Source: a virus. Taken from it: a stretch of 64,000 nt of DNA. A program made the translations under genes and the position numbers. How positions within the stretch are numbered: the stretch's first letter is position 1; each line of letters opens with the position of its first letter. Below, in pieces: positions 3 through 62,563 of the stretch. The notes beneath the pieces are model-generated. The model worked only from the letters and a program-made list of their open reading frames with translations. It ran no database searches and was not told the DNA's origin. The stretch spans positions 470 through 64,469 of the IMG/VR virus record IMGVR_UViG_3300030433_002667; one strand, written 5' to 3'.

Positions 3-1262
3 CCAGCCAACGTCAAGTTCAATTGGAAGAATGAACTAAACAAATGGCTACCCAACGAAGATGTCCAAGTCATCAGCAAGGGGAAGGATGAGGTGAAGCA
101 TACTGACATCGTGGTCATCAACTACGACCTGATGCACAAGAAGCAAACGGAACTGATGTGCATAGCCCCACGTCTCGTGGTGCTTGATGAGGTCCACTAC
201 CTCAAGAACTCAGGGAGTAAGGACAAGCCAGTCAAGCGCACTGTTGCAACATTGACTGTAGCCAAATCTTCTCCGAAAGTCATCGCTTTGTCTGGGACTG
301 CAATTTCAAGCAGGCCCAAGGAATTCTTCAACACACTCAACCTGATGCGACCCGAACAGTTCTCTTCGTTCTGGAACTTCGCTCAGCGTTATTGCGACCC
401 GTGGCACAACGGTTGGTCATGGAACTTTGATGGGGCCAGCCATGTCAAGGAACTGAACGAGCGTACTCGTGACCTATGTATTCGTAGGCTCAAGAGCGAA
501 GTGCTTCCTGAACTGCCACCCAAGACTCGCTCTTTCCTCCCTATCCATTTGACTAAAAGCCAGCGAGAGGAATATGATTTATCTCAGGAGGAATGGGACC
601 GTCGCATCAATGACCACTACCTGAACTCAGAGCCATTGCCTCCGGGCATGATGCTCAACATGCTCAGTGACCTAAGGCACATCTGTGGTAGAACCAAGAT
701 ACCTTTTGCAACTGACTGGATAGCAGATTATCATCGACAGACTGGCAAGCCAATTGTAGTATTCGCTCATCATCGTGATGTAATTAGTGGCTTGGTCAAA
801 CAACTCAATGCTGTAAAGCAGTATCAAAGTATGAATGTAGACACCATTACTGGTAGCGTGTCTTCAAAGAACCGGCAGAACATTGTGGATAATTTCCAGA
901 AGGGTGAGATTGATGTGCTCATCTGTAATACTGTTGCTGCCAAAGAAGGTATCACACTCACTGCGGCTGACACCGTTCTCTTCATTGAAAGAGAGTGGGT
1001 CCCTACCGACGAGGAACAGGCAGAAGACCGTGTGTATCGTATCGGACAAGAGAGCCAGCACGTACACGCAGTGTATCTATCGATTGCTGGAACAGTTGAT
1101 GAACACTTTGACCGTGTGGTTGAGAGTAAGCGTCAGGTTGTCAAGGCTGTCCTTGACGGTGGGGACATGGAGCAGCGTAAGGGATTGGTCAGTGAACTGG
1201 TCAAGAAACTAAAGCAGGAGAGAGGATGGAAAATGGAGGTAAAGGATTATGCCAACGTATGA
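3..1262 (+). CDS. SNF2-family (HARP/SMARCAL1-like) helicase, 5'-truncated by the window
   Basis: Frame is open from base 3 (PANVKFNWKNELNKW, motif Ia). Walker B VVLDEVHYLKN, motif III LSGT, motif V/VI AAKEGITLT...QAEDRVYRIGQ. Walker A lies upstream of the window. Confidence 0.9.
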   Translation, partial: PANVKFNWKNELNKWLPNEDVQVISKGKDEVKHTDIVVINYDLMHKKQTELMCIAPRLVVLDEVHYLKNSGSKDKPVKRTVATLTVAKSSPKVIALSGTAISSRPKEFFNTLNLMRPEQFSSFWNFAQRYCDPWHNGWSWNFDGASHVKELNERTRDLCIRRLKSEVLPELPPKTRSFLPIHLTKSQREEYDLSQEEWDRRINDHYLNSEPLPPGMMLNMLSDLRHICGRTKIPFATDWIADYHRQTGKPIVVFAHHRDVISGLVKQLNAVKQYQSMNVDTITGSVSSKNRQNIVDNFQKGEIDVLICNTVAAKEGITLTAADTVLFIEREWVPTDEEQAEDRVYRIGQESQHVHAVYLSIAGTVDEHFDRVVESKRQVVKAVLDGGDMEQRKGLVSELVKKLKQERGWKMEVKDYANV

Positions 1263-1632
1263 AGGAATGAAGAAAGAGTTTGATGGTAGATGGGACTTGA
1301 CGAAGGCCGAACATATTCTGAAGCAAATGGATGAGATTCTAAGAATATATGATGGTCGGTTTGATGAAGAAGGATTTGAGCAGGTTTGCTTGAACTTCTT
1401 CAAAGATGTAGCGGAGGCTAACTTAGACCACGATACCTATGTATCGCATAAGAAAGGTACGTTTCCTAAGAGACCGGGTAAAGCAGGTATCTCTCATGTA
1501 GTATGGGAAGTGCTTGACCCTAAACCATTCGGGTCATTGCACGGGGTACAGAGGAAAGGTGTTGCTCAGCCTCTTGAGCCTGCTGGTCAAGAGCCTGACG
1601 AATTTCCTCTTGGGTCCAAGAGACAGGACTGA
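1249..1632 (+). CDS. Hypothetical protein (127 aa)
   Basis: Start overlaps the helicase stop, after GGAGGT. The 3' end overlaps the convergent kinase-like gene by 113 nt. No motif recognised. Confidence 0.55.
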   Translation: MPTYEGMKKEFDGRWDLTKAEHILKQMDEILRIYDGRFDEEGFEQVCLNFFKDVAEANLDHDTYVSHKKGTFPKRPGKAGISHVVWEVLDPKPFGSLHGVQRKGVAQPLEPAGQEPDEFPLGSKRQD

Positions 1633-2386
1633 GTTGCTGATACTGGTCAGCACTCTGATACCACGGTTCCATGACCTCCTGAATGTCAGCAGACTCTGTA
1701 GGAATCTCAGAGGCAACTCTACGAATCTGAGCAGGGTCGTGTCCTATTAGTCTAGGTGGTATTAGGCGAGCATGATAGGATTGTGGGTCAGCGAACATCG
1801 GGTCAATCATTCGTAAGTCAGTCTGGATACCTCTTCTACCTAACTCAGGTATCATCTGAGGTGGTACAAATCCTTTTTGTCCTTGTGCCATAGCCGCCCA
1901 GTTTTCAGGCTTAGCATCCCATAGTTTCATCGCTTGGGCCAGTGGATAGTGCTCATACAAATCCATGAGAATTTCTCTCCTCATTGGCTTGTTCTCTCTA
2001 CTGAATACACCCTCGCCTTGGATAGGTGTACCTCTCGCTTGAGTGGTGAACACTGGGAATGTTTGGTAAGGATTGTATTGTCGCATCTGCTCCCCACCTG
2101 TACCAACTTCCCACCCCTCTGGTAATTCATGAGCGCCGCCCGGTGCTCTTTCAAATTCTTCAGGGGCGACCAGTTCAGGATGTTCCTCCGCTAATCTACC
2201 GGCGAGTATATGACTGGCCACATTGAATGGCCCACCTACCTTGGTAACACGAGGAGGACCTGTACGAAAGTCTTCAGGCTCTTCTACAGCAGCACGCCAA
2301 GACCCATGTCCCAATATTTCATCAAGAGACTGGGGCATGTATGCAGCCTTGAGAAGCATCCATGCTTGCTCAAACGCTGCGGTCAT
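1520..2386 (-). CDS. Protein-kinase-like fold enzyme with N-terminal AW-x-x-LK leader
   Basis: Gly-loop LGHGSWR (res 25-31), beta3 Lys in RVTK49, catalytic loop D157AKPEN162, and metal-binding Asp in RMID195, in the correct order. Leader MTAAFEQAWMLLK-A. It is the only real minus-strand gene in the replication block. Confidence 0.65.
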   Translation of the reverse strand: MTAAFEQAWMLLKAAYMPQSLDEILGHGSWRAAVEEPEDFRTGPPRVTKVGGPFNVASHILAGRLAEEHPELVAPEEFERAPGGAHELPEGWEVGTGGEQMRQYNPYQTFPVFTTQARGTPIQGEGVFSRENKPMRREILMDLYEHYPLAQAMKLWDAKPENWAAMAQGQKGFVPPQMIPELGRRGIQTDLRMIDPMFADPQSYHARLIPPRLIGHDPAQIRRVASEIPTESADIQEVMEPWYQSADQYQQLSPVSWTQEEIRQALDQQAQEAEQHLSSVPRAMTRMV

Positions 2387-2443
2387 GGTGTTCGCAGAGC
2401 AAAGTCAGACTTAGACTTTTGCCGAAAACAAGCCACCAGATAC

Positions 2444-2467
2444 TTTTGCTTATAAATACCAAAGAGA
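2444..2467 (+). promoter_or_regulatory. TATA-containing 24-bp promoter motif, copy 1
   Basis: TTTTGCTTATAAATACCAAAGAGA in the divergent intergenic gap; 22/24 identical to the copy at 6801-6824. Confidence 0.7.
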
Positions 2468-2527
2468 AGTATTTCTCTGAGAATCGGAAACCAAAAGAAC
2501 CGATGAGATATAGGAGACACGAGAGAG

Positions 2528-4075
2528 ATGAACGATATTGTAGTAATTGGAAAAGTAACAGGCAGCACAGCGAACCTTGTAGAAGTGGAATACCCGTCGA
2601 TGGTAGGTGTGAATCACATCCGTATACCACGTACATTAGTGGGTCGCTTAGAGCGAATCAGCAACGGACGTGTTGCAGTGTTAGTGCGAACTGATGACAG
2701 TGCCCGTGGGCAAGAGATTGATGACATTCTAATCAATCAGCATGCGCCACTGCATGTCACTGATGAGCACATGAACATTGTAATGGCCATGGAGAACAAC
2801 GAGCCTATGCCGGGAGATAGTGCAGAGAATGATGACGAAGTACCCATGTGGTCTAACGAAGCATCGCTTTCCATCACTGTAGACGGAGTAGAAGCGGGAC
2901 CAGCAGGTCCATTCGACGATATGCTGTATGCAGGTGGTCGTAAGGAGAAGGCGAGTATTGATTGGGACTTTGACCCAGTCCGTAAGCCTGCCTTCGTTGT
3001 CCACGAGAGCAACGAGAACACCAGCATGGGTGCAACGGTGGCCCGTGTGAATGGTCCGTCAGGTGAACCTGCGGCGTATCACATATTCAATCCGCACTAT
3101 GCTGAAGAGAAGCGACCAGCAGGTGCTTACCTTGGTACATTCAGTGCATCCTACTACCCTATGCCTTACCGCAAGGGATTCGGCCCTGTCCTTGACTTGG
3201 CCGCCGAGAAGGGTTGGCCTGCTCAAGTGATTGCATGGGACGAAGGTAAGCGAGCAGCATGCTTCTGCGACGTAACTACCAGCGTTGATTGGGAAAGTGC
3301 AGGTAGGTCTCTTGGAGACAAGTGGCAACAACGTGGCTTTGTTAAGACAGGTGATTACCGAATTGGAATTGCAATTCACAACAGTTTGGATGGTTCTTCT
3401 GCATTCAAGGTTCAGGCAGTGGCTGAGCGCTTGGCATGTACGAATGGTATGGTCATGGGTGACCGTGCCACATTGGTTAACCTCAAGCACACAAAGGGTG
3501 TGCTGGGCAACTACGATTTCGATAGCCTTGCTGACAAAATCAGCGAGGTCATTCAGGCCGCAGCGGATGAGATTATCGTTGCGGAATCTATGCGTGGGAT
3601 TGAAGTGAACCGTGATACCTTTGAGAAACTCATGACCATTTGTGAGCGAAAGGGATTGATTACCAAGCCTACACTCAAGCGTGATGATGAAGGCAATGTG
3701 GTATCCATTAACCGTGGCCACATGTGGAGACTCATGGGACAAGGATGGACTAAGCCTTCTGAGTCTTGGGTCGCTGTCAGTGGTGAGGATAAGGGAACAC
3801 TATACCACGCTTACAATATCCTGACTGGTGCAATCACTCACAAGCCGACTTGGACTGATGGGACTGCTGTACTGAATGGTAGCACGATGAACTTCAATAC
3901 CTTCCATGACCGATTGCACACAGTGCACAAGGTTCTCGGAGATTTGACCAAGGATGTGTACAACAAACTAGATATGACCGAGACGCAGGACCTGCACACT
4001 ACCAAGAGCGCTTCTGCCAACATTCTGGCCGAGCGCCTTGCGAATGTCCCGATGTTTTCGGAGGTGCTGCACTGA
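2528..4075 (+). CDS. DUF932-family protein
   Basis: Motif IAIHNSLDGSSAF...ERLACTNGMV is typical of DUF932/DUF945 proteins of mobile elements. Preceded by a GGAG RBS. Confidence 0.7.
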   Translation: MNDIVVIGKVTGSTANLVEVEYPSMVGVNHIRIPRTLVGRLERISNGRVAVLVRTDDSARGQEIDDILINQHAPLHVTDEHMNIVMAMENNEPMPGDSAENDDEVPMWSNEASLSITVDGVEAGPAGPFDDMLYAGGRKEKASIDWDFDPVRKPAFVVHESNENTSMGATVARVNGPSGEPAAYHIFNPHYAEEKRPAGAYLGTFSASYYPMPYRKGFGPVLDLAAEKGWPAQVIAWDEGKRAACFCDVTTSVDWESAGRSLGDKWQQRGFVKTGDYRIGIAIHNSLDGSSAFKVQAVAERLACTNGMVMGDRATLVNLKHTKGVLGNYDFDSLADKISEVIQAAADEIIVAESMRGIEVNRDTFEKLMTICERKGLITKPTLKRDDEGNVVSINRGHMWRLMGQGWTKPSESWVAVSGEDKGTLYHAYNILTGAITHKPTWTDGTAVLNGSTMNFNTFHDRLHTVHKVLGDLTKDVYNKLDMTETQDLHTTKSASANILAERLANVPMFSEVLH

Positions 4076-24840: not shown

Positions 24841-25428
24841 TCAATCATTCACGAATGGGTCATCCCAAGGTTCCATTCCTAGTTCTTCTTCTTTCCAACG
24901 CCTGATTTGGTCATAACTCGGCATTTCATTTCTCGGTGGAATTATGCGTCCACCTGCCCATACGGTCGGTAGCCTTACCTGTCGCTCTTCAGGAATAGTT
25001 TCAGTAGTTCCAAAGGCTTCTAAATCAGGCGTTTCATCTTTACCAGTATAAGCACGACCAGCCGGACTATTTCCTGACCACCCTACATCCTCATAATCTC
25101 GTGAGATAGGCCCCCTTATACCTACTATGCGTCGAGGGCGACCGCCCCAATCACCAGCACCATACTTACTCCATTCCCTAGAAAGTCCCTCCGCTGCCGT
25201 TTGTGCATCAGGTCCACTCCACATCCATGTTAGTGCTCTAGGTGCGGAACGATGTATTTGTCTGAAATAACCACGGAGTTTTCTAGGCTCAATAGGTCCA
25301 CGAGGGTCATCAGCAGGTGCCGAGCGCCAAGCAGTAACCGGACCATGAGGACTAGGAAAATCAGGATGGAACTCACCAAGCGTAGTCTGACGCTTCAGTA
25401 TCATCCAAGCCTCATCCATCGGTGTCAT
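24841..25428 (-). CDS. Protein with AW-x-x-LK leader; possible ADP-ribosyltransferase fold
   Basis: Leader MTPMDEAWMILK-R (ATG 25428; track start GTG 25437). VTAWR...TWMWS+helix...IVGIRG...LEAF...IPEE follows the ART strand order. Inserted between tail genes. Confidence 0.4.
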   Translation of the reverse strand: MTPMDEAWMILKRQTTLGEFHPDFPSPHGPVTAWRSAPADDPRGPIEPRKLRGYFRQIHRSAPRALTWMWSGPDAQTAAEGLSREWSKYGAGDWGGRPRRIVGIRGPISRDYEDVGWSGNSPAGRAYTGKDETPDLEAFGTTETIPEERQVRLPTVWAGGRIIPPRNEMPSYDQIRRWKEEELGMEPWDDPFVND

Positions 25429-57067: not shown

Positions 57068-60000
57068 TCAAGTATGGATGACAGCCGAGTCTTCTGTGAT
57101 TTCAAGTTCACCCTCTTCGATGGGGATAACCATGTGCTTAGGTGGCTTTGCGTCCTCCGTTCCCGGCTCTATAGTTGAGTCCTCTCCGGGGCGCTTTCGG
57201 TTGTCAAAGTCAGGCATTGTCTTTTCATCGTGGAGATTGGTCGGACCCATGGGAGATTCGTTCGGAGTAGCATAGTCTATACCCAGACCCTTGGCTCCTG
57301 AACTGGATACACCAACAAGTCCAACCCCACTCTTAACCATTCTATCAAGAAGTTCCAAGCCTTTCACTAGAACTTTCCTTTTCTCATTCTTGTCCCACCA
57401 ATCAGTATCTTTGACTCTCTTAGGCTCAATCAAAGGTTCAGCATCGCCTTCTGATTCGTGAACTTCTTCCTTTTCAGCAACATCCAATCCAGCCTTGAGC
57501 ATAGCACCGGCCACTGGTGACCAGTATTGTCTCTGACTCTCAGACAAACGGATGAGATAATGAGAAGAGGCCAGCGGACTATGCACAGTCCAGTTTTGAC
57601 CACGTTGTGTACATTTGTATACAACATCGCCTTGAGGCATCGTGATTCGGATTCCACTCGGTGCTCTATAGACTTCACAAAGCCACTGCTCATCTTCAGA
57701 TTTAGCGAGGATTCCTAAAGTCTCTTGGCTGACCAATCCCTCACCTTCAGCCTCACCTTCTATATCCGAACCGCTGACATTGTAGAGTTTCTGCCCACTG
57801 CTGGTTTCTGATTCGCCAACATTCGTAACATTCACACGCACATGGTCTCCTTCGTTGTATTTCTCAGGACTATCAAATGCAGCACCCATGTCCATGTAAG
57901 TATGTCCTTTCATTTCTACAGCACGAGAGCCAAGTTCTTCTTCCTGAGTAATTGGACCTGTACCTAACCGGTATGTGTAGGGCCCGTTGCCTCTGCGTTC
58001 CAAAACAATCAGAACAACATCACTGCCCGGACTGAGCAGAACCCACTTCGGATGCCTCATTTCACCGACCATGTAAGTAGACTTAGCATCACGTAGTAGT
58101 AGTCGATTGTCCTCTTCCTGTAAATCTTCTATAGTCAGTTCAAGGCCTGCATCATCAGTAAGCCTCGTATCACTGGCACTAGGAACATGGATATTTTCAA
58201 TTCCTTCCATGCCACCTCTCAGAACTTTCATCCTCTCGCTAAGTGGAACGTCATGCACTTCCTTTTCAGAAAACTCAATGACATCGAAAATATAGTATCC
58301 ATCTTCAGTCTTGATAACATCTACATGGAAGTCTTCATCAGAAACCTTCTGGAAATTCTCTTTGTCTTCCTTATTGAGTTTGAATGAAGGGGAAGTTACG
58401 TCCTCACCTTCCTTCTTGACAAAGCCTCGCTCACCTTCAGGTAGGACTGAAACTATCCAATCGCCTGTAAATCCACGAAGGTGCTCAAGGTCATCCAGTT
58501 CAAAGATGCGATGCATCGGTTGCAATAGAGGGATGTCTTTGCCCAATTCCTTCCTAATAATGTCAGGATTGGTCAATGCGGCTAAGTTCATTTCAGATTT
58601 AGCGACACTGGTATTTTCTCTATTCCTCGGATAGGGTTCACCTTCAGTAACTTGGAACTGAGGGCCTTGTCGAGCAAGAGAAAAGAGTCTTTGTGCTTCT
58701 TGTCCATGGAGAATACTCTTCAGTTCTTCAGGGGCAACCGCATCATAAAATCCTTGTAAAGGTTGAACGAGATTCATGTCAAACCCTTCAGGCATGTGGA
58801 AAATCGAAATCGTTCCATCTGGTTCAATGTTATAATCAAAGGTAGGATTTACTTCGACTTGGTCACCTAACTCATGATTGAATCCATCAGAATTGTAAAG
58901 ACTGTGTACAGAATAAGAATTTGGACCAAAGCGGTCCACTGGAACTTTACCTAAGCCTAAATATTCGGCTTCTACTTCACCTACAGTATGTGGCTCAATG
59001 GCCGGGTCACTCATCAAAATAGAATTGAGATTCTGTAAAGTTCGATGAGCATGTGATTGTTTCTGAGCCCTCTTCCCTTGTTTCTTACCAGCCCTTGAAG
59101 GAGTGATGGAGATTTCTTCTTGCCTTGGGTCAGCATTATGAGCAGTATGCCAATGCAGTCCCAAATCTTGCATTTGTTCTCCTACACCCACTTTGCCAGT
59201 TCTACCTCGACCACCAAGCCTTGGGTCATATGCTGATAACTCTGTATTGGCAGCACGTGCTGCATTAAGGAGAGATTCATTTCTATCTGGCTTATTGGTC
59301 GCTAAATCCAAAGCCTGCTGACGAAGGTCTCCTGAAAACTCACCATAGTGCTCTCCTTCAGAAAATGCCTGTGCTAAAGTCATGATTGGGAACTTAACAG
59401 AGGCATCCTGTCTTTCGATTGCCATTTGCTTTACTCTGTCTAACAAAGCATCAATTGTCATCTGAACATGGGGCTCTGAATAATCAAGTCCCAGCATATC
59501 TGCAACATCTTCCGCAGAATCTTGAATACCGATAGAATTGGGTGATTGGTGGACAAGTTGTTTCATCTGACTTGCTCTATCTCCACTGGCCATTTCTCTA
59601 ACTTGACTATGTCTTCCTACACCTTTTGTATGTATACCATGAGTTTCGTGCGGTGCAATATTCAGGAAATCGTTGGCCATGCGAGCCAGTTGCCGAATAT
59701 TAGCATCAATTACTTCTGGGGGAAGACTAGGGTCAAATTGACCGGGGAACTGTGATTCAACTACATTTTTCATCATAGGTCCGGCTTGAGTAATGGCAGC
59801 AGCATCCGCTGCCAATTTATCATTTACAGTATCATCTTGTATGTTTCTATGTATAATCTGGGAACCTGCTCCTGCACGACGAGTTAAGTCATCATGTTCA
59901 AGTTCAGCCAACTGGTCTTCAAGTTCCTTGGCCCAGTGCAAGAGATGTTCTGCATGCTTTTCATTTTCTGGAGATTCGGCCAAACCTTCAAACTGCATTT

Positions 60001-62563
60001 GTATATCTAGTAATTCATTCATGAGTTCTTGATACACTCCTTCATCCGGCCTCTCTTCTTCACGTTCATGCTTGAGATTATGAATTTGGTCTGCTTCCGG
60101 TACAGTTAGATTACCTTGGGCATCTGTATGGTTGATATCTTGAATACCACTACCCGGAGATAAAACAGGACGAGCAAAATGCAATTTGCTTCCAATATTA
60201 TGGAAGTGATGCGCCATTTTTCTTCGCCCTCTTTCCCAATTAAACACTCCTCCTTTACCCTTGAATGGATTATCCACAGGCAATGTACCTGCAGTATATC
60301 CTTCTAAACTGTACAAATGATGCTGTGCGGCTTTCTCATCTTCTGCGAAGTTATCATAGTGACCCTTGTTGGCCTCATTATGAAAAGGAGCATGCACGCT
60401 GGAACTGTGCCTTTCTGTAGTGCGCCTTGAACCTCTTCCCGAATGCCACACATTATGTGGGTGCAAATTAGATTCCGCATCATGGATAGCCCCTCTGTCA
60501 ACATCAGTATACACTCTATCGTATACTTTCCCTCCCCTTCCTCTGACCTTCTTGGCGACAGTGGTCAATTCGTGCTCTGGTTGACCAAATGGAGCAAGCA
60601 TAGATTGCATACCGCTGTTCAATGTTTCACCAGTAGAATCTCTTTGGTGCCTAAGAGCAATTGTATTGGTTAAAGGATTCTTTGCAAAGAACAGGCTATG
60701 CTCATTACCAAAATCATCAGTCGTAATACGCTGAGCCGCCTCTCTCTGTGCCTTCTCTCGCTCTTCCTTCATCCTCTTTTCTTCTGGAGTTCTGGCCACT
60801 TGTTCAAAGGCTCGGGCATAAGGGTCAGGTTCATCTTCCGGTATTTGCGTTTCCATACCGGTAAGTAATTGATTTTCTCCAAACAGCAAACTGTGTGCAT
60901 GAAGAAGGTCAAACAAAGCATTAGGTGGCTTACCCATACCACCTCTACCAAGGAAAGGTCTCTGCCAATGCGTAGACAATGTGTCATGTTCAATGTTACC
61001 ATCCTTTCCTGTGGTCAACTCTGCGGGCCAGTGGTCTGGGTCAAGGTAAGTCCCATAATGCCAATGACCAGCCTCCCTCGCCAACCTGCCCGCATTTCTC
61101 TGCTTGCCCAAAATCGATAACTTATCGAAAATCTTCTTCACTTCATCCATCGTAAATGGATTTTGACTTGCGTCCCACTCTTCCCCATAGAAACCATGTT
61201 CTCCGTCTGCATAAAATTCTCCAGTCTTAGGGTCTATGTTCAACAAAGCCATGAGTGCATTCCTACGAATACCATTGACCTTAGAATCCTTACGGTGGAA
61301 TCCAATTTTACCATCTTGAATATATGGTAGGCCTTCAATAGGCTCTCCCCTCATGGATTCCATAAAGCGGATAGCACGGTCATATCCTCCGGGAACGGCA
61401 TCAAAGGCATTTAGATTCATATACATACTAGGAGTTTCAGTTTCACTAATCGGCTTAGGTTTGAACTTAATGGGTTCACCGGGCATATGTGGAGCACGCA
61501 CCCAGTGATTATACATGCCTGAAAATCGCTGTTGGAAATTACGCTTCACACGAGGAACTGAAATAGTCCCATCTCCAATCGTCCCATGATATTCTTTATT
61601 CCCAGCACCATGTTTACGCAGATGTTCGTATACAGCGTGTCGTTGGTCAGCGTCTAACCATTCCAACCCAAGCATATAATCAAGCATACCTAGTCCCTTA
61701 GGAATACCATTTTCATTAACTTCAGGCGACATCCAGTTATCCATAGCATCATCCATGTGCATTTGGCGCAACACGTGGTCTATCTCATCACGACTCTTCC
61801 CTTCAAGTTGTGACTCAATGTTACGAACAAGCACATCGTTGCCATTTTTCCACCGAAGGTAGTTCTGTTCGTATAGGTCATGATTAGTCATGTCCAATTG
61901 ACCATAGTGGTTGGGTCTTCTCAGGAAGTGATATTCTGGACGGTCAAGGCTACCGTAATGGTCTTCCCAAGCCATTTCCTTATTGCCGTCAATTTGACTT
62001 CTTGACTGGGCTTCCGGTGATTCTGCCAAATAGAAATCACGCAACAGCCTCAATTTTTCTGGAGCATGGCCAGTCTGTGCGTTCCGATAAAGCGGATTAA
62101 ATCTATGGTCGAAATAATTGTGGTCTTTGTAAGGGTCACTGCGAGCATCACCTTGTGCCATATTGACCTGTCTTCCAACAAGAGATTGGTCAAACCTTGG
62201 CGGAATGACTCTTTCGGAATCATATGCTCCGCCTAGTAATTCTTGCCCAGAATAATGGTCATAAGCGGCTGTTACTCCCCCTCCTTCTGAATCAGAAGCG
62301 GCTCCAGCCCCAGCACCACCTTCTGTCGAAAAATCCTCTGTCCCAGAATAATCTTGGAATTGCCAGTCTTCTTCTTTCAAGACAGAGTAGAACATCTTGA
62401 TGAGTGATTCGTCATCTACACTAAGAGTATAGCCTCTGCGCTCAGCATTAACTGCTGACAAATAGAAATCTGCCCCAGCATCAGCCTTACCGATACCATC
62501 GACTAAGGCATATAGGAATGTCTTACGGTTTCGGTCAAGAGTGTCTAATGGACCTTCTCTCAT
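57068..62563 (-). CDS. 1831-aa head-module protein with a degenerate ATP-dependent ligase domain near the C-terminus
   Basis: At about 58600-57700: WIVSVLPEGER (motif I without Lys), YIFDVI...VPLSERM (IIIa), LLLRDAKSTY..GEMRHPKWVLL (IV/V), then an OB-like fold. Immediately upstream of the protease gene. Confidence 0.65.
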   Translation of the reverse strand: MREGPLDTLDRNRKTFLYALVDGIGKADAGADFYLSAVNAERRGYTLSVDDESLIKMFYSVLKEEDWQFQDYSGTEDFSTEGGAGAGAASDSEGGGVTAAYDHYSGQELLGGAYDSERVIPPRFDQSLVGRQVNMAQGDARSDPYKDHNYFDHRFNPLYRNAQTGHAPEKLRLLRDFYLAESPEAQSRSQIDGNKEMAWEDHYGSLDRPEYHFLRRPNHYGQLDMTNHDLYEQNYLRWKNGNDVLVRNIESQLEGKSRDEIDHVLRQMHMDDAMDNWMSPEVNENGIPKGLGMLDYMLGLEWLDADQRHAVYEHLRKHGAGNKEYHGTIGDGTISVPRVKRNFQQRFSGMYNHWVRAPHMPGEPIKFKPKPISETETPSMYMNLNAFDAVPGGYDRAIRFMESMRGEPIEGLPYIQDGKIGFHRKDSKVNGIRRNALMALLNIDPKTGEFYADGEHGFYGEEWDASQNPFTMDEVKKIFDKLSILGKQRNAGRLAREAGHWHYGTYLDPDHWPAELTTGKDGNIEHDTLSTHWQRPFLGRGGMGKPPNALFDLLHAHSLLFGENQLLTGMETQIPEDEPDPYARAFEQVARTPEEKRMKEEREKAQREAAQRITTDDFGNEHSLFFAKNPLTNTIALRHQRDSTGETLNSGMQSMLAPFGQPEHELTTVAKKVRGRGGKVYDRVYTDVDRGAIHDAESNLHPHNVWHSGRGSRRTTERHSSSVHAPFHNEANKGHYDNFAEDEKAAQHHLYSLEGYTAGTLPVDNPFKGKGGVFNWERGRRKMAHHFHNIGSKLHFARPVLSPGSGIQDINHTDAQGNLTVPEADQIHNLKHEREEERPDEGVYQELMNELLDIQMQFEGLAESPENEKHAEHLLHWAKELEDQLAELEHDDLTRRAGAGSQIIHRNIQDDTVNDKLAADAAAITQAGPMMKNVVESQFPGQFDPSLPPEVIDANIRQLARMANDFLNIAPHETHGIHTKGVGRHSQVREMASGDRASQMKQLVHQSPNSIGIQDSAEDVADMLGLDYSEPHVQMTIDALLDRVKQMAIERQDASVKFPIMTLAQAFSEGEHYGEFSGDLRQQALDLATNKPDRNESLLNAARAANTELSAYDPRLGGRGRTGKVGVGEQMQDLGLHWHTAHNADPRQEEISITPSRAGKKQGKRAQKQSHAHRTLQNLNSILMSDPAIEPHTVGEVEAEYLGLGKVPVDRFGPNSYSVHSLYNSDGFNHELGDQVEVNPTFDYNIEPDGTISIFHMPEGFDMNLVQPLQGFYDAVAPEELKSILHGQEAQRLFSLARQGPQFQVTEGEPYPRNRENTSVAKSEMNLAALTNPDIIRKELGKDIPLLQPMHRIFELDDLEHLRGFTGDWIVSVLPEGERGFVKKEGEDVTSPSFKLNKEDKENFQKVSDEDFHVDVIKTEDGYYIFDVIEFSEKEVHDVPLSERMKVLRGGMEGIENIHVPSASDTRLTDDAGLELTIEDLQEEDNRLLLRDAKSTYMVGEMRHPKWVLLSPGSDVVLIVLERRGNGPYTYRLGTGPITQEEELGSRAVEMKGHTYMDMGAAFDSPEKYNEGDHVRVNVTNVGESETSSGQKLYNVSGSDIEGEAEGEGLVSQETLGILAKSEDEQWLCEVYRAPSGIRITMPQGDVVYKCTQRGQNWTVHSPLASSHYLIRLSESQRQYWSPVAGAMLKAGLDVAEKEEVHESEGDAEPLIEPKRVKDTDWWDKNEKRKVLVKGLELLDRMVKSGVGLVGVSSSGAKGLGIDYATPNESPMGPTNLHDEKTMPDFDNRKRPGEDSTIEPGTEDAKPPKHMVIPIEEGELEITEDSAVIHT

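What the first reader, a model, noticed from the sequence alone, without database searches (positions are those of the whole stretch)
1520..2386. Unannotated protein-kinase-fold enzyme behind the leader, in antisense within the replication block
Seen: LGHGSWR (Gly loop), VTK49, D157AKPEN162 and MID195 occur in the order and spacing of a kinase core. The alphaC Glu is not obvious (N55-V-A-S). The gene is in a divergent arrangement with the DUF932 gene. Inference: a viral Ser/Thr or small-molecule kinase used for host takeover or anti-defence, comparable to the T7 gp0.7 kinase but possibly virion-delivered.
Basis: partly seen in the sequence, partly recalled or inferred. Interest (0 to 1): 0.7.

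Follow-up and report, generated by a model that had tools for sequence, protein, structure and literature searches.

The report
Orphan protein kinase of marine archaeal viruses
A conserved, backwards-facing gene in a marine archaeal virus (magrovirus-like) encodes a very divergent but apparently active protein kinase, distantly like the phage T7 kinase; no kinase is mentioned in the three magrovirus papers I could search.

Summary
ORF 1520-2386 (-) is a real, selected gene of 288 aa. Across a 17-member family with 33% mean column identity, five of the eight invariant residues are those motif residues: G28, K49, D157, N162 and D195. K159 is kept in 16 of 17.

The N-lobe aligns weakly with T7 gp0.7 (hhalign E about 4e-4). 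The family also has the T7-kinase hallmark "DP" in place of DFG, but an ePK-type DxKPxN catalytic loop.

The host virus looks like a group-A magrovirus: thermosome, RFC, PolB nearest to haloviruses, SNF2 helicase. The gene keeps the same slot and inverted orientation in relatives down to 23% identity.

Its N-terminal helix (AFEQAWxLLK) is shared with a polymorphic family of small proteins, some ART-like, encoded next to the giant virion protein.

Best reading: an active Ser/Thr(/Tyr) protein kinase used for host takeover or anti-defence. Virion delivery is possible but not shown.

The parts
1520..2386 (-). Kinase gene, 288 aa (P0001), stop codon included
   Evidence: ORF list and translation. 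Third-position bias of substitutions, 20/10/59. Homologues. AF2 model with pLDDT 84.
2348..2386 (-). N-terminal helix or 'leader', residues 1-13 (MTAAFEQAWMLLK)
   Evidence: W9, L12 and K13 are present in all 15 family members that have an N-terminus. The motif [DE][EQ]AW.[LI]LK occurs only twice in the six-frame translation of the contig, both times at an N-terminus. It is predicted as helix 3-14 with low pLDDT. It aligns with T7 gp0.7 residues 52-62.
2294..2314 (-). Gly-rich loop, L25-GHGSW-R31, between strands beta1 (24-27) and beta2 (31-35)
   Evidence: G28 is invariant and G26 is kept in 15 of 17. Strand positions come from the model. The segment aligns with T7 gp0.7 L73-GNGHFSAA; per PMC13645617, G76F is a catalytically dead T7K mutant.
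2240..2242 (-). K49, the beta3 (VAIK-type) lysine, in V-T-K-V-G
   Evidence: Invariant in 17 of 17 and lies in strand 46-51. It aligns with K93 of T7 gp0.7 (V-I-K-V-G).
1901..1918 (-). Catalytic loop D157-A-K159-P-E-N162
   Evidence: D157 and N162 are invariant; K159 is kept in 16 of 17. The loop follows strand 155-157. The extended hhalign alignment pairs D157/N162 with T7 D195/N200.
1793..1804 (-). Metal-binding motif D195-P-M-F (the DFG equivalent, of 'DPx' type)
   Evidence: D195 is invariant, P196 is kept in 15 of 17 and F198 in 15 of 17. It follows strand 191-193. DPV is reported as the hallmark of T7K homologues.
2387..2527 (.). Divergent intergenic region shared with the DUF932 gene. 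It contains a conserved TATA-like element (2449-2457) and a conserved GGAAACCA block (2486-2493).
   Evidence: Alignment of five upstream regions from relatives. No sigma-70-like site was found.
1249..1632 (+). Convergent neighbour gene (127 aa) whose last 113 nt overlap the 3' end of the kinase gene
   Evidence: Its core is conserved in relatives; the overlapping 35-aa tail exists only in this clade. The overlap shows 4 differences in 113 nt, against 85 in 754 nt elsewhere in the gene.
2528..4075 (+). DUF932-family gene, the conserved divergent partner
   Evidence: Pfam PF06067, E 9e-10. The same neighbour is present in 13 of the 14 related kinase loci examined: L001-L008 and L010-L012 adjacent, L015 with two small genes in between; L016 runs out before that side.
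24841..25428 (-). Second gene with the same N-terminal motif (MTPMDEAWMILK...), directly downstream of the 5566-aa ORF
   Evidence: Translation. Its family has 44 clusters that share about 32 N-terminal residues and have variable C-termini. The position is conserved, and doubled in L013.

Best explanation
The gene encodes a catalytically competent, highly divergent protein-kinase-like enzyme. It is most probably a Ser/Thr (possibly dual-specificity) protein kinase of a group-A-type magrovirus, a virus of marine Poseidoniales archaea.

Shown by computation:
- The gene is real and conserved.
- The fold is kinase-like, with elements in this order: beta1, Gly loop, beta2, beta3 carrying K49, helix C carrying E67, beta4-5, helix E, catalytic loop D157-x-K159-x-x-N162, a variable insert, then D195-P196.
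- These residues are the invariant core of the family.

Inferred mechanism:
- K49 and the Gly loop hold ATP, and N162 and D195 bind Mg2+.
- D157 is the catalytic base, and K159 contacts the gamma-phosphate as in Hanks-type Ser/Thr kinases.
- The Pro after D195 replaces the DFG Phe, as in T7 kinase homologues. There it is proposed to lock the enzyme in an always-on state.
- No regulatory domain and no activation-loop or APE region is evident.

The gene is transcribed from its own promoter, in the conserved divergent gap shared with the DUF932 gene. This makes it independent of the replication operon around it.

Inferred role: it phosphorylates host proteins, and perhaps viral ones, early in infection to take over or disarm the cell. 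This would be analogous to T7 gp0.7.
For: Reality of the gene:
- Codon-position bias and homologues.
- Synteny and inverted orientation are kept down to 23-30% identity.

Fold:
- The AF2 model has pLDDT 84 and pTM 0.84.
- The Foldseek PDB top 50 are all protein kinases, with E about 1e-4 and probability 0.99.
- BFVD and the ESM Atlas also return kinases, including T7-like phage kinases.
- The language-model search gives, as nearest named clusters, T7 kinase, YrbL, OspG and Kinase-PolyVal, all kinase-like families.

Residues:
- The invariant columns are the catalytic set.
- Spacings are kinase-like: G-to-K 16-21, K-to-D 95-124, D-to-N 5, N-to-D 14-33.

Link to T7:
- hhalign against the T7 gp0.7 family gives E 3.7e-4 to 6.9e-4. 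It aligns the pre-beta1 helix, the Gly loop and V-x-K-V-G, and when extended pairs the catalytic D and N.
- The DP motif is present in 15 of 17 members, matching the DPV hallmark of T7K homologues.

Precedent for function: T7K is a hyper-promiscuous kinase that disarms defence systems (PMC13645617).

Host assignment:
- Thermosome alpha subunit, E 1.5e-126, and RFC small subunit.
- PolB is nearest to haloarchaeal tailed viruses, at 24-26% identity.
- The gene set matches the magrovirus description, in which SNF2 helicase and thermosome mark group A (PMC5434244).
Against: - No sequence model of any kinase family matches: Pfam at E up to 1 for all 17 members, PHROGs including phrog_2828, NCBIfam, and PDB sequences.
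- The alignment behind the model is shallow (17 sequences).
- I could not inspect coordinates, so the geometry of the active site is not verified.
- The alphaC Glu is not universal (11 of 17).
- The HRD His-Arg, the APE motif and the alphaF Asp are absent.
- The T7 link has hhalign probability of only 27-36%, and confident alignment covers only about 41 columns.
- The C-terminal 85 residues are acidic (pI about 5), unlike T7K's basic DNA-binding domain.
- Activity, substrates and timing of expression are entirely untested.
Confidence: 0.65

Rival explanations
1. Same enzyme, different delivery. The N-terminal helix is a capsid-targeting or processing tag, the kinase is made late, packed into the head or tail and injected with the DNA. 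This would resemble T4 Alt and the internal proteins, or the kinase domains of polyvalent proteins.
For: - The 8-residue motif [DE][EQ]AW.[LI]LK occurs only twice in the contig, both times at residues about 5-13 of a protein. I estimate about 0.002 chance hits.
- The second carrier belongs to a family of 44 clusters with an almost invariant 32-aa N-terminus and unrelated C-termini. Some give sub-threshold PARP or ART-PolyVal hits.
- Those genes sit directly after the giant virion ORF, sometimes two in tandem.
- The kinase gene lies on the same strand as the structural genes.
- The virus has an S78 prohead protease.
- Precedents for injected ARTs and kinases are described in PMC5512222.
Against: - The same helix aligns with an internal segment (residues 52-62) of T7 gp0.7. 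That is an early, non-packaged protein, so the helix may simply be part of this kinase lineage's N-lobe.
- Only 13 residues are shared with the other family, not its full 32-aa module.
- No shared promoter element with structural genes was found.
- The gene lies 19 kb from the structural module.
- No proteomic data are available, and the cleavage site is a guess.
Confidence: 0.25
2. A kinase-fold enzyme with a non-protein or non-kinase chemistry. Examples would be a small-molecule or nucleotide kinase (APH/choline-kinase-like), or an AMPylating or otherwise atypical transferase.
For: - The top ESM Atlas structural row is an APH-family cluster (TM 0.34).
- Several of the best full-length PDB matches are atypical kinases: CotH, HipA and the MavQ lipid kinase.
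- HRD, APE and a recognisable activation segment are absent.
Against: - The catalytic loop is D-x-K-P-E-N, with Lys at D+2 in 16 of 17 members. By the established Hanks classification this marks Ser/Thr protein kinases. APH and ChoK enzymes have HxDxxxxN without this Lys.
- All top Foldseek hits are protein kinases.
- The nearest sequence-level relative is T7 gp0.7.
Confidence: 0.12
3. A regulator of the virus's own replication. The kinase would phosphorylate viral replication proteins, for example the DUF932 protein with which it is always divergently paired, rather than host targets.
For: - The divergent pairing with the DUF932 gene and the placement inside the replication block are conserved across the lineage.
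- One distant relative carries a weak tyrosine-phosphatase-like gene in the same block.
- T7K also phosphorylates phage proteins.
Against: - Gene adjacency alone is weak evidence.
- In L015 two small genes separate the kinase gene from the DUF932 gene.
- There is no co-variation or binding evidence.
- This reading does not exclude host targets.
Confidence: 0.15
4. A pseudokinase or scaffold that keeps the fold but has no catalysis, or a fold assignment that is an artefact of a shallow alignment.
For: - There are no HMM hits.
- The alphaC Glu is variable.
Against: - Pseudokinases typically lose K, D or N. Here exactly these are the invariant residues across 23-92% identity.
- Five searches with different methods or libraries (four on the one predicted model, one on the sequence alone) converge on kinases.
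Confidence: 0.05

Closest known systems
Phage T7 gp0.7 protein kinase (T7K; PHROG 2828 / Pfam PF27024) and homologues such as JSS1_004
   Same: - It is a stand-alone viral kinase with no regulatory domain.
- The N-lobe sequence pattern is shared: helix, then L-G-x-G-x-[FW]-x-x-A, then V-x-K-V-G (hhalign E about 4e-4).
- The D-to-N spacing in the catalytic loop is 5.
- 'D-P' replaces D-F-G.
- Both lack HRD.
- T7K's shown role is host takeover and broad anti-defence (PMC13645617).
   Different: - There is no hit to phrog_2828.
- The catalytic loop is D-A-K-P-E-N (ePK Ser/Thr type), against D-M-H-S-G-N in T7.
- A 14-33-residue insert lies between N162 and D195.
- No Ser follows DPx (T7K S216 is the inhibitory autophosphorylation site).
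- The C-terminus is acidic rather than a basic DNA-binding shut-off domain.
- The host is archaeal.
- The gene is inverted inside the replication block, not at the early genome end.
Kinase-PolyVal domain (Pfam PF18762) of polyvalent proteins of phages and conjugative elements (Iyer et al. 2017, PMC5512222)
   Same: - It is a strongly reduced or altered protein-kinase core that keeps the ATP-binding and phosphotransfer residues.
[quoted passage not shown]
- There is an insert within the catalytic region.
- It belongs to mobile elements and is predicted to act on host proteins.
- It is among the nearest named clusters in the language-model search.
   Different: - There is no HMM hit for any family member, assuming PF18762 is in the Pfam copy used.
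- The protein stands alone at 288 aa and is not a domain of a giant multidomain protein. An exhaustive search found no longer fused forms: hits are 91-311 aa.
- It comes from archaeal viruses, not Bacteroidota or Verrucomicrobiota phages.
Minimal bacterial effector and atypical kinases (OspG/NleH, YrbL, CtkA, HipA, CotH)
   Different: - Sequence identity in the structural alignments is only 5-12%.
- HipA's N-terminal domain and its D-D-H-x-K-N loop are absent.
- These similarities are at the fold level only.
T4 capsid-targeting sequence on internal proteins IPI-III and Alt (for the leader only; recalled from established T4 literature, with Alt as described in PMC5512222)
   Same: A short, nearly identical N-terminal peptide is shared by otherwise unrelated small proteins of one virus. 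One set of these is ART-like.
   Different: Packaging and cleavage are not shown here. The kinase shares only 13 residues with the other family, and the same helix has a counterpart inside T7 gp0.7.

Membership tests
Protein-kinase-like (PKL) fold superfamily | Bilobal fold: a beta-rich N-lobe with helix C, and a helical C-lobe | tested here: met
Protein-kinase-like (PKL) fold superfamily | Gly-rich loop and beta3 Lys | tested here: met
   G26 is kept in 15 of 17; G28 and K49 in 17 of 17. They lie in the b1-b2 loop and in strand 46-51.
Protein-kinase-like (PKL) fold superfamily | Helix-C Glu pairing with the beta3 Lys | tested here: inconclusive
   E67 lies at K49+18 inside helix 56-68, but is Glu in only 11 of 17 members. 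Model coordinates could not be inspected.
Protein-kinase-like (PKL) fold superfamily | Catalytic loop D-x-x-x-x-N and a downstream metal-binding Asp | tested here: met
   D157, N162 and D195 are invariant.
Hanks-type eukaryote-like Ser/Thr kinases (Pfam PF00069) | Match to the Pkinase profile | tested here: not met
   None of the 17 members gives a hit at E up to 1. A profile search of PDB sequences found no kinase.
Hanks-type eukaryote-like Ser/Thr kinases (Pfam PF00069) | H-R-D-L-K-P-E-N catalytic loop with Lys at D+2 | tested here: inconclusive
   D-x-K-P-E-N is present (K in 16 of 17), but the H-R before the Asp is absent.
Hanks-type eukaryote-like Ser/Thr kinases (Pfam PF00069) | D-F-G, the A-P-E activation segment and the alphaF Asp | tested here: not met
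   D-P-M-F stands in place of DFG. There is no APE at the usual distance. A conserved [FY]-x-E-P-W at residues 238-242 is of unknown meaning.
T7 kinase family (PHROG 2828 / Pfam PF27024) | Match to the family profile | tested here: not met
   There is no PHROG hit at E up to 0.1. PF27024 is not in the Pfam copy used, because T7 gp0.7 itself gets no family. hhalign against a 17-sequence gp0.7 alignment gives only E 3.7e-4 to 6.9e-4 and probability 27-36%.
T7 kinase family (PHROG 2828 / Pfam PF27024) | D-P-V/x motif in place of D-F-G | tested here: met
   D195-P196 is present in 15 of 17 members. T7 has D213-P-V.
T7 kinase family (PHROG 2828 / Pfam PF27024) | Conserved Ser right after DPV (the inhibitory autophosphorylation site) and a C-terminal DNA-binding shut-off domain | tested here: not met
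   The sequence is D-P-M-F-A, with no Ser. The C-terminal 85 residues have pI about 5. The paper notes that distant homologues also lack the shut-off domain.
Kinase-PolyVal (Pfam PF18762) | Profile match, and occurrence inside a polyvalent multidomain protein | tested here: not met
   There is no Pfam hit. All 14 detectable relatives are 91-311 aa.
Kinase-PolyVal (Pfam PF18762) | Conserved Gln in the last N-lobe strand, and an insert in the catalytic region | tested here: met
   Q116 is invariant in strand 112-117. The insert between N162 and D195 is 14-33 residues. The features are as listed in PMC5512222.
Magroviruses (order Magrovirales), group A | Archaeal-type replisome genes, PolB nearest to haloviruses, thermosome and SNF2 helicase | tested here: met
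   The description is in PMC5434244. No phylogeny was built, so the group assignment is provisional.

The most novel reading that the evidence does not exclude
Magroviruses carry a set of stand-alone effectors marked by a common N-terminal helix (xxAWx[LI]LK). The set would comprise this T7K-like, always-on kinase and a polymorphic family of ART-like and unknown enzymes. These are loaded into the virion through that tag and injected with the DNA. This would be the first injected-effector system, and the first virus-encoded protein kinase, described for viruses of archaea. It would also be a single-protein counterpart of bacterial-phage polyvalent proteins.
Probability: 0.2. Interest if true: 0.8.

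Novelty: new variant of a known kind. Interest (0 to 1): 0.62.

Why it matters
Viral protein kinases have recently been shown to be broad anti-defence weapons. T7K phosphorylates nearly the whole proteome and disarms DNA-linked defence systems, and its homologues were reported almost only in phages (PMC13645617).

A conserved kinase with the same unusual DP active-site motif in abundant viruses of uncultured marine archaea would extend this strategy to the archaeal virosphere. It would also give a testable handle on how magroviruses take over Poseidoniales, for which no host-takeover function is known. The three magrovirus papers searched never mention a kinase.

The family is invisible to Pfam, PHROGs and NCBIfam, so it is currently annotated as hypothetical wherever it occurs.

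The shared N-terminal tag links it to a polymorphic cassette family. That family may be of independent interest for effector delivery.

Tried and rejected
Searches that gave nothing for the kinase:
- Pfam, PHROGs, NCBIfam and PADLOC HMM scans of the protein, and Pfam for all 17 family members: no kinase family.
- phmmer and profile hmmsearch against PDB sequences: only chance hits, mL41, optineurin and ArgRS.
- megablast and tblastn against 50,697 phage records: no match.
- Earlier findings of this scan, searched by sequence and by words: nothing.

Other steps that led nowhere:
- A spurious antisense ORF was considered and rejected on codon-position bias and deep conservation.
- The sigma-70 promoter and terminator scan found no promoter. 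It is also not appropriate for an archaeal host.
- The conserved upstream blocks (TGGTTTCC, ATTTATAAG) were searched for elsewhere in the window, to link the gene to a promoter class. There was no enrichment.
- hhalign of the kinase family against P0022 showed no homology beyond the leader. BLASTP found a second weak patch (R-x-I-P-P-R ... Q-I-R-R ... M-E-P-W, E 0.11), which I left unexplained.
- hhalign in global mode against the T7 family failed.
- The AF2 model of P0022, meant to test the ART reading, had pLDDT 41 and was unusable, so no fold search was made.
- Ser/Thr/Tyr content, suggested by the T7K paper: replication block 15.1%, structural block 18.6%, kinase 11.1%. The direction fits the paper's idea, but tail proteins are normally rich in Ser/Thr/Tyr, so the result is uninformative.
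- No complex prediction was run. No binding partner is claimed, and an enzyme-substrate pair is a poor use of that job.
Full report
**1. The observation**

The minus-strand ORF 2386-1520 translates to 288 residues (P0001). The catalytic-loop codons are at nt 1901-1918 and were read directly.

The gene is real.
- A 92%-identical homologue differs at codon positions 1/2/3 by 20/10/59 substitutions.
- Full-length homologues occur in Tara and other marine assemblies on contigs of up to about 100 kb.
- An exhaustive HMMER scan of 1.84 billion representatives found only 14 at E below 1e-3. All are 91-311 aa, so the family is small and has no fused forms.

**2. The motifs are not chance**

I aligned 17 members (A2; 23-92% identity to the query, mean column identity 33%).
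- Only eight columns are invariant: G28, K49, G51, Q116, P121, D157, N162 and D195.
- K159 is kept in 16 of 17, and G26 and P196 in 15 of 17.
- Five of the eight invariant residues (G28, K49, D157, N162, D195), with near-invariant K159, are the ATP-binding and phosphotransfer set of a protein kinase.
- The spacings are kinase-like: G-to-K 16-21, K-to-D 95-124, D-to-N 5, N-to-D 14-33.
E67 lies 18 residues after K49, the PKA spacing, but is Glu in only 11 of 17.

**3. Fold**

AlphaFold2 on A2 gave pLDDT 84 and pTM 0.84. The canonical elements appear in the canonical order:
- strands 24-27 and 31-35 flanking the Gly loop
- strand 46-51 carrying K49
- helix 56-68
- strand 112-117 ending in Q116
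- helix 133-146
- strand 155-157 leading into the catalytic loop
- strand 191-193 leading into D195

The structure searches agree.
- The top 50 Foldseek hits against the PDB are all protein kinases (ULK1, ERK2, Aurora A, DAPK1, PknB; E about 1e-4, probability 0.99).
- An unbiased VIA-align search of 48,161 chains gave kinase-fold proteins in 48 of the top 50: HipA 6.9, CotH 6.6, CtkA 6.4, actin-fragmin kinase 6.1, HipT, Rio2, NleH. The two exceptions were SAICAR synthetases.
- BFVD returned giant-virus and phage kinases, including T7-like ones.
- The ESM Atlas returned APH, Pkinase, HipA_2 and YrbL clusters.
- A language-model feature search named four nearest annotated clusters, all kinase families: T7 kinase, YrbL, OspG and Kinase-PolyVal.

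**4. Closest relative**

hhalign of A2 against T7 gp0.7 alone, and against a 17-sequence gp0.7 alignment (A4), gave E 1.7e-3 and 3.7e-4 to 6.9e-4. Probability was 16-36%.
- The alignment pairs AFEQAWxLLK ... L-G-x-G-x-W/F-x-A-A ... V-T-K-V-G with T7's LEHQDWWTTLK ... L-G-N-G-H-F-S-A-A ... V-I-K-V-G.
- The extended alignment also pairs D157/N162 with T7 D195/N200.
- T7 has I-T-D213-P-V; the family here has [IM]-D-P-[MQ]-F.

A 2026 study reports that a D-P-V/x motif in place of D-F-G is the hallmark of T7K homologues and may lock them in an active state. It also reports that T7K is a hyper-promiscuous dual-specificity kinase that disarms defence systems, and that its homologues occur almost only in phages (PMC13645617).

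The present family differs in several ways:
- It has an ePK-type D-x-K-P-E-N loop.
- It has an insert before the DP motif.
- It has no Ser after DPx.
- Its C-terminus is acidic rather than a basic DNA-binding domain.
- It does not hit phrog_2828.

It also shows two features listed for Kinase-PolyVal domains, a conserved Gln in the last N-lobe strand and a catalytic-region insert (PMC5512222). It does not match that Pfam model.

**5. Genomic setting**

The window carries these genes:
- an SNF2 helicase
- a DUF932 protein
- an RFC-type clamp loader
- a PolB whose best cultured matches are haloarchaeal tailed viruses (24-26% identity)
- a thermosome alpha-like chaperonin (E 1.5e-126)
- an S78 prohead protease
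- an HK97-type capsid protein
- a 5566-aa ORF

This matches the published description of magroviruses, where thermosome and SNF2 helicase mark group A (PMC5434244). Those viruses are assigned to marine group II archaea (Poseidoniales).

The kinase gene is the only long minus-strand gene inside the plus-strand replication block. In all 14 related kinase loci whose neighbours are in view (all but the 1.6-kb L009), down to 23-30% identity, it faces against its neighbours, and wherever both sides are in view it lies between the SNF2 helicase and DUF932 genes (L015 ends before any helicase, L016 before DUF932).

The 141-nt divergent gap contains a conserved TATA-like element (2449-2457) and a conserved GGAAACCA block. 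This is consistent with independent, archaeal-type transcription. I could not tell whether expression is early or late, and no shared promoter motif was found.

The last 113 nt overlap a convergent 127-aa gene. That gene's overlapping tail is specific to this clade.

**6. The 'leader'**

Residues 1-13 form a low-confidence helix. W9, L12 and K13 are present in every member that has an N-terminus.

The motif [DE][EQ]AW.[LI]LK occurs only twice in the six-frame translation of the 69.6-kb contig, both times at residues about 5-13 of a protein. The second carrier (24841-25428, minus strand) lies directly after the giant ORF.
- Its family has 44 clusters that share an almost invariant 32-residue N-terminus and have unrelated C-termini.
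- In a relative, two such genes sit in tandem.
- Three members give sub-threshold PARP or ART-PolyVal hits.

This resembles a polymorphic effector cassette and the T4 capsid-targeting-sequence principle. That is the basis for the 'virion-delivered' idea.

Against it, the same helix aligns with an internal part of the non-packaged T7 kinase. It may therefore be a structural element of this kinase lineage that was copied onto the cassette family, or the reverse. An AF2 model of the second protein was unusable (pLDDT 41). I give virion delivery about 25%.

**7. Verdict**

The kinase-fold reading is supported, and the T7 comparison is strengthened at the sequence-motif level. Function and delivery remain inference.

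The most likely mechanism is ATP-dependent, probably constitutive, Ser/Thr(/Tyr) phosphorylation of host and possibly viral proteins by an enzyme made from its own promoter.

It is a new, unannotated variant of viral protein kinases. As far as three magrovirus papers (no mention of a kinase) and one general literature search show, nothing comparable has been noted for archaeal viruses.

Noticed in passing
window 24841-25428 (-); L013:6387-6995 and L013:7001-7558: This is a polymorphic family of 44 clusters of small proteins. They share a near-invariant 32-aa N-terminus (MTPMDEAWMILKRQTTLGEFHPDFPSPYGPV) and have unrelated C-termini. The genes lie directly after the giant virion ORF, sometimes two in tandem. 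Three members give sub-threshold PARP or ART-PolyVal hits. The AF2 model of the window's copy failed (pLDDT 41).
   Followed up: partly
protein P0054 (328 aa; no locus fetched): This single protein has two internal copies of the leader-like motif (PIDIAFRLLK and PMDIAMRLLKRQTTLGEF...), placed behind a basic N-terminal segment. It looks like a fusion or polyprotein of cassette units, and could bear on whether the motif marks processing sites.
   Followed up: no
window 57068-62563 (-): This 1831-aa ORF lies just upstream of the S78 prohead protease, where a portal gene would be expected. It has no PHROG hit and a sub-threshold ATP-dependent DNA ligase domain at residues 1404-1507. That recalls the 'ligase embedded in the structural module' reported for magroviruses, and suggests a large multidomain virion protein.
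   Followed up: no
L005:4448-7528 (and L006-L008), against window 3-1262 and L001:8076-10067: The SNF2 helicase is 1026 aa with a LAGLIDADG_3 domain in some relatives, but 663 aa in others. This is probably an intein or homing-endonuclease insertion.
   Followed up: no
window 1520-1632 (both strands): There is a 113-nt convergent overlap between the kinase 3' end and the tail of the 127-aa gene at 1249-1632. The tail is absent in distant relatives. The overlap is about three times less divergent than the rest of the kinase gene (4 of 113 against 85 of 754).
   Followed up: partly
L016:7385-7834: A distant relative that carries the kinase also encodes a 149-aa protein with a weak Y_phosphatase3 hit in the same replication block. 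This may be a kinase/phosphatase pair.
   Followed up: no
BFVD hits (A0A6J5S481, 1201 aa, 'portal protein'; A0A516M4V9_2; A0A6J5NE85): The kinase model matches parts of several very long proteins from uncultured tailed phages, one of them annotated as an HK97-type portal. This hints that portal-fused, and hence virion-borne, kinase domains exist elsewhere.
   Followed up: no
P0001 residues 206-242 against P0022 residues 163-191: A second weak similarity patch lies outside the leader: R-x-I-P-P-R ... Q-I-R-R ... M-E-P-W, 14 of 37 identical, E 0.11 for the single comparison. E-P-W is also conserved across the kinase family (P241 in 16 of 17). It is unexplained.
   Followed up: no
window 2449-2457 and 2486-2493: A TATA-like element (TTTATAA) and a GGAAACCA block are conserved in the divergent kinase/DUF932 intergenic region across relatives with about 30% protein identity. 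They are likely archaeal promoter or leader elements. Neither recurs significantly elsewhere in the window.
   Followed up: partly
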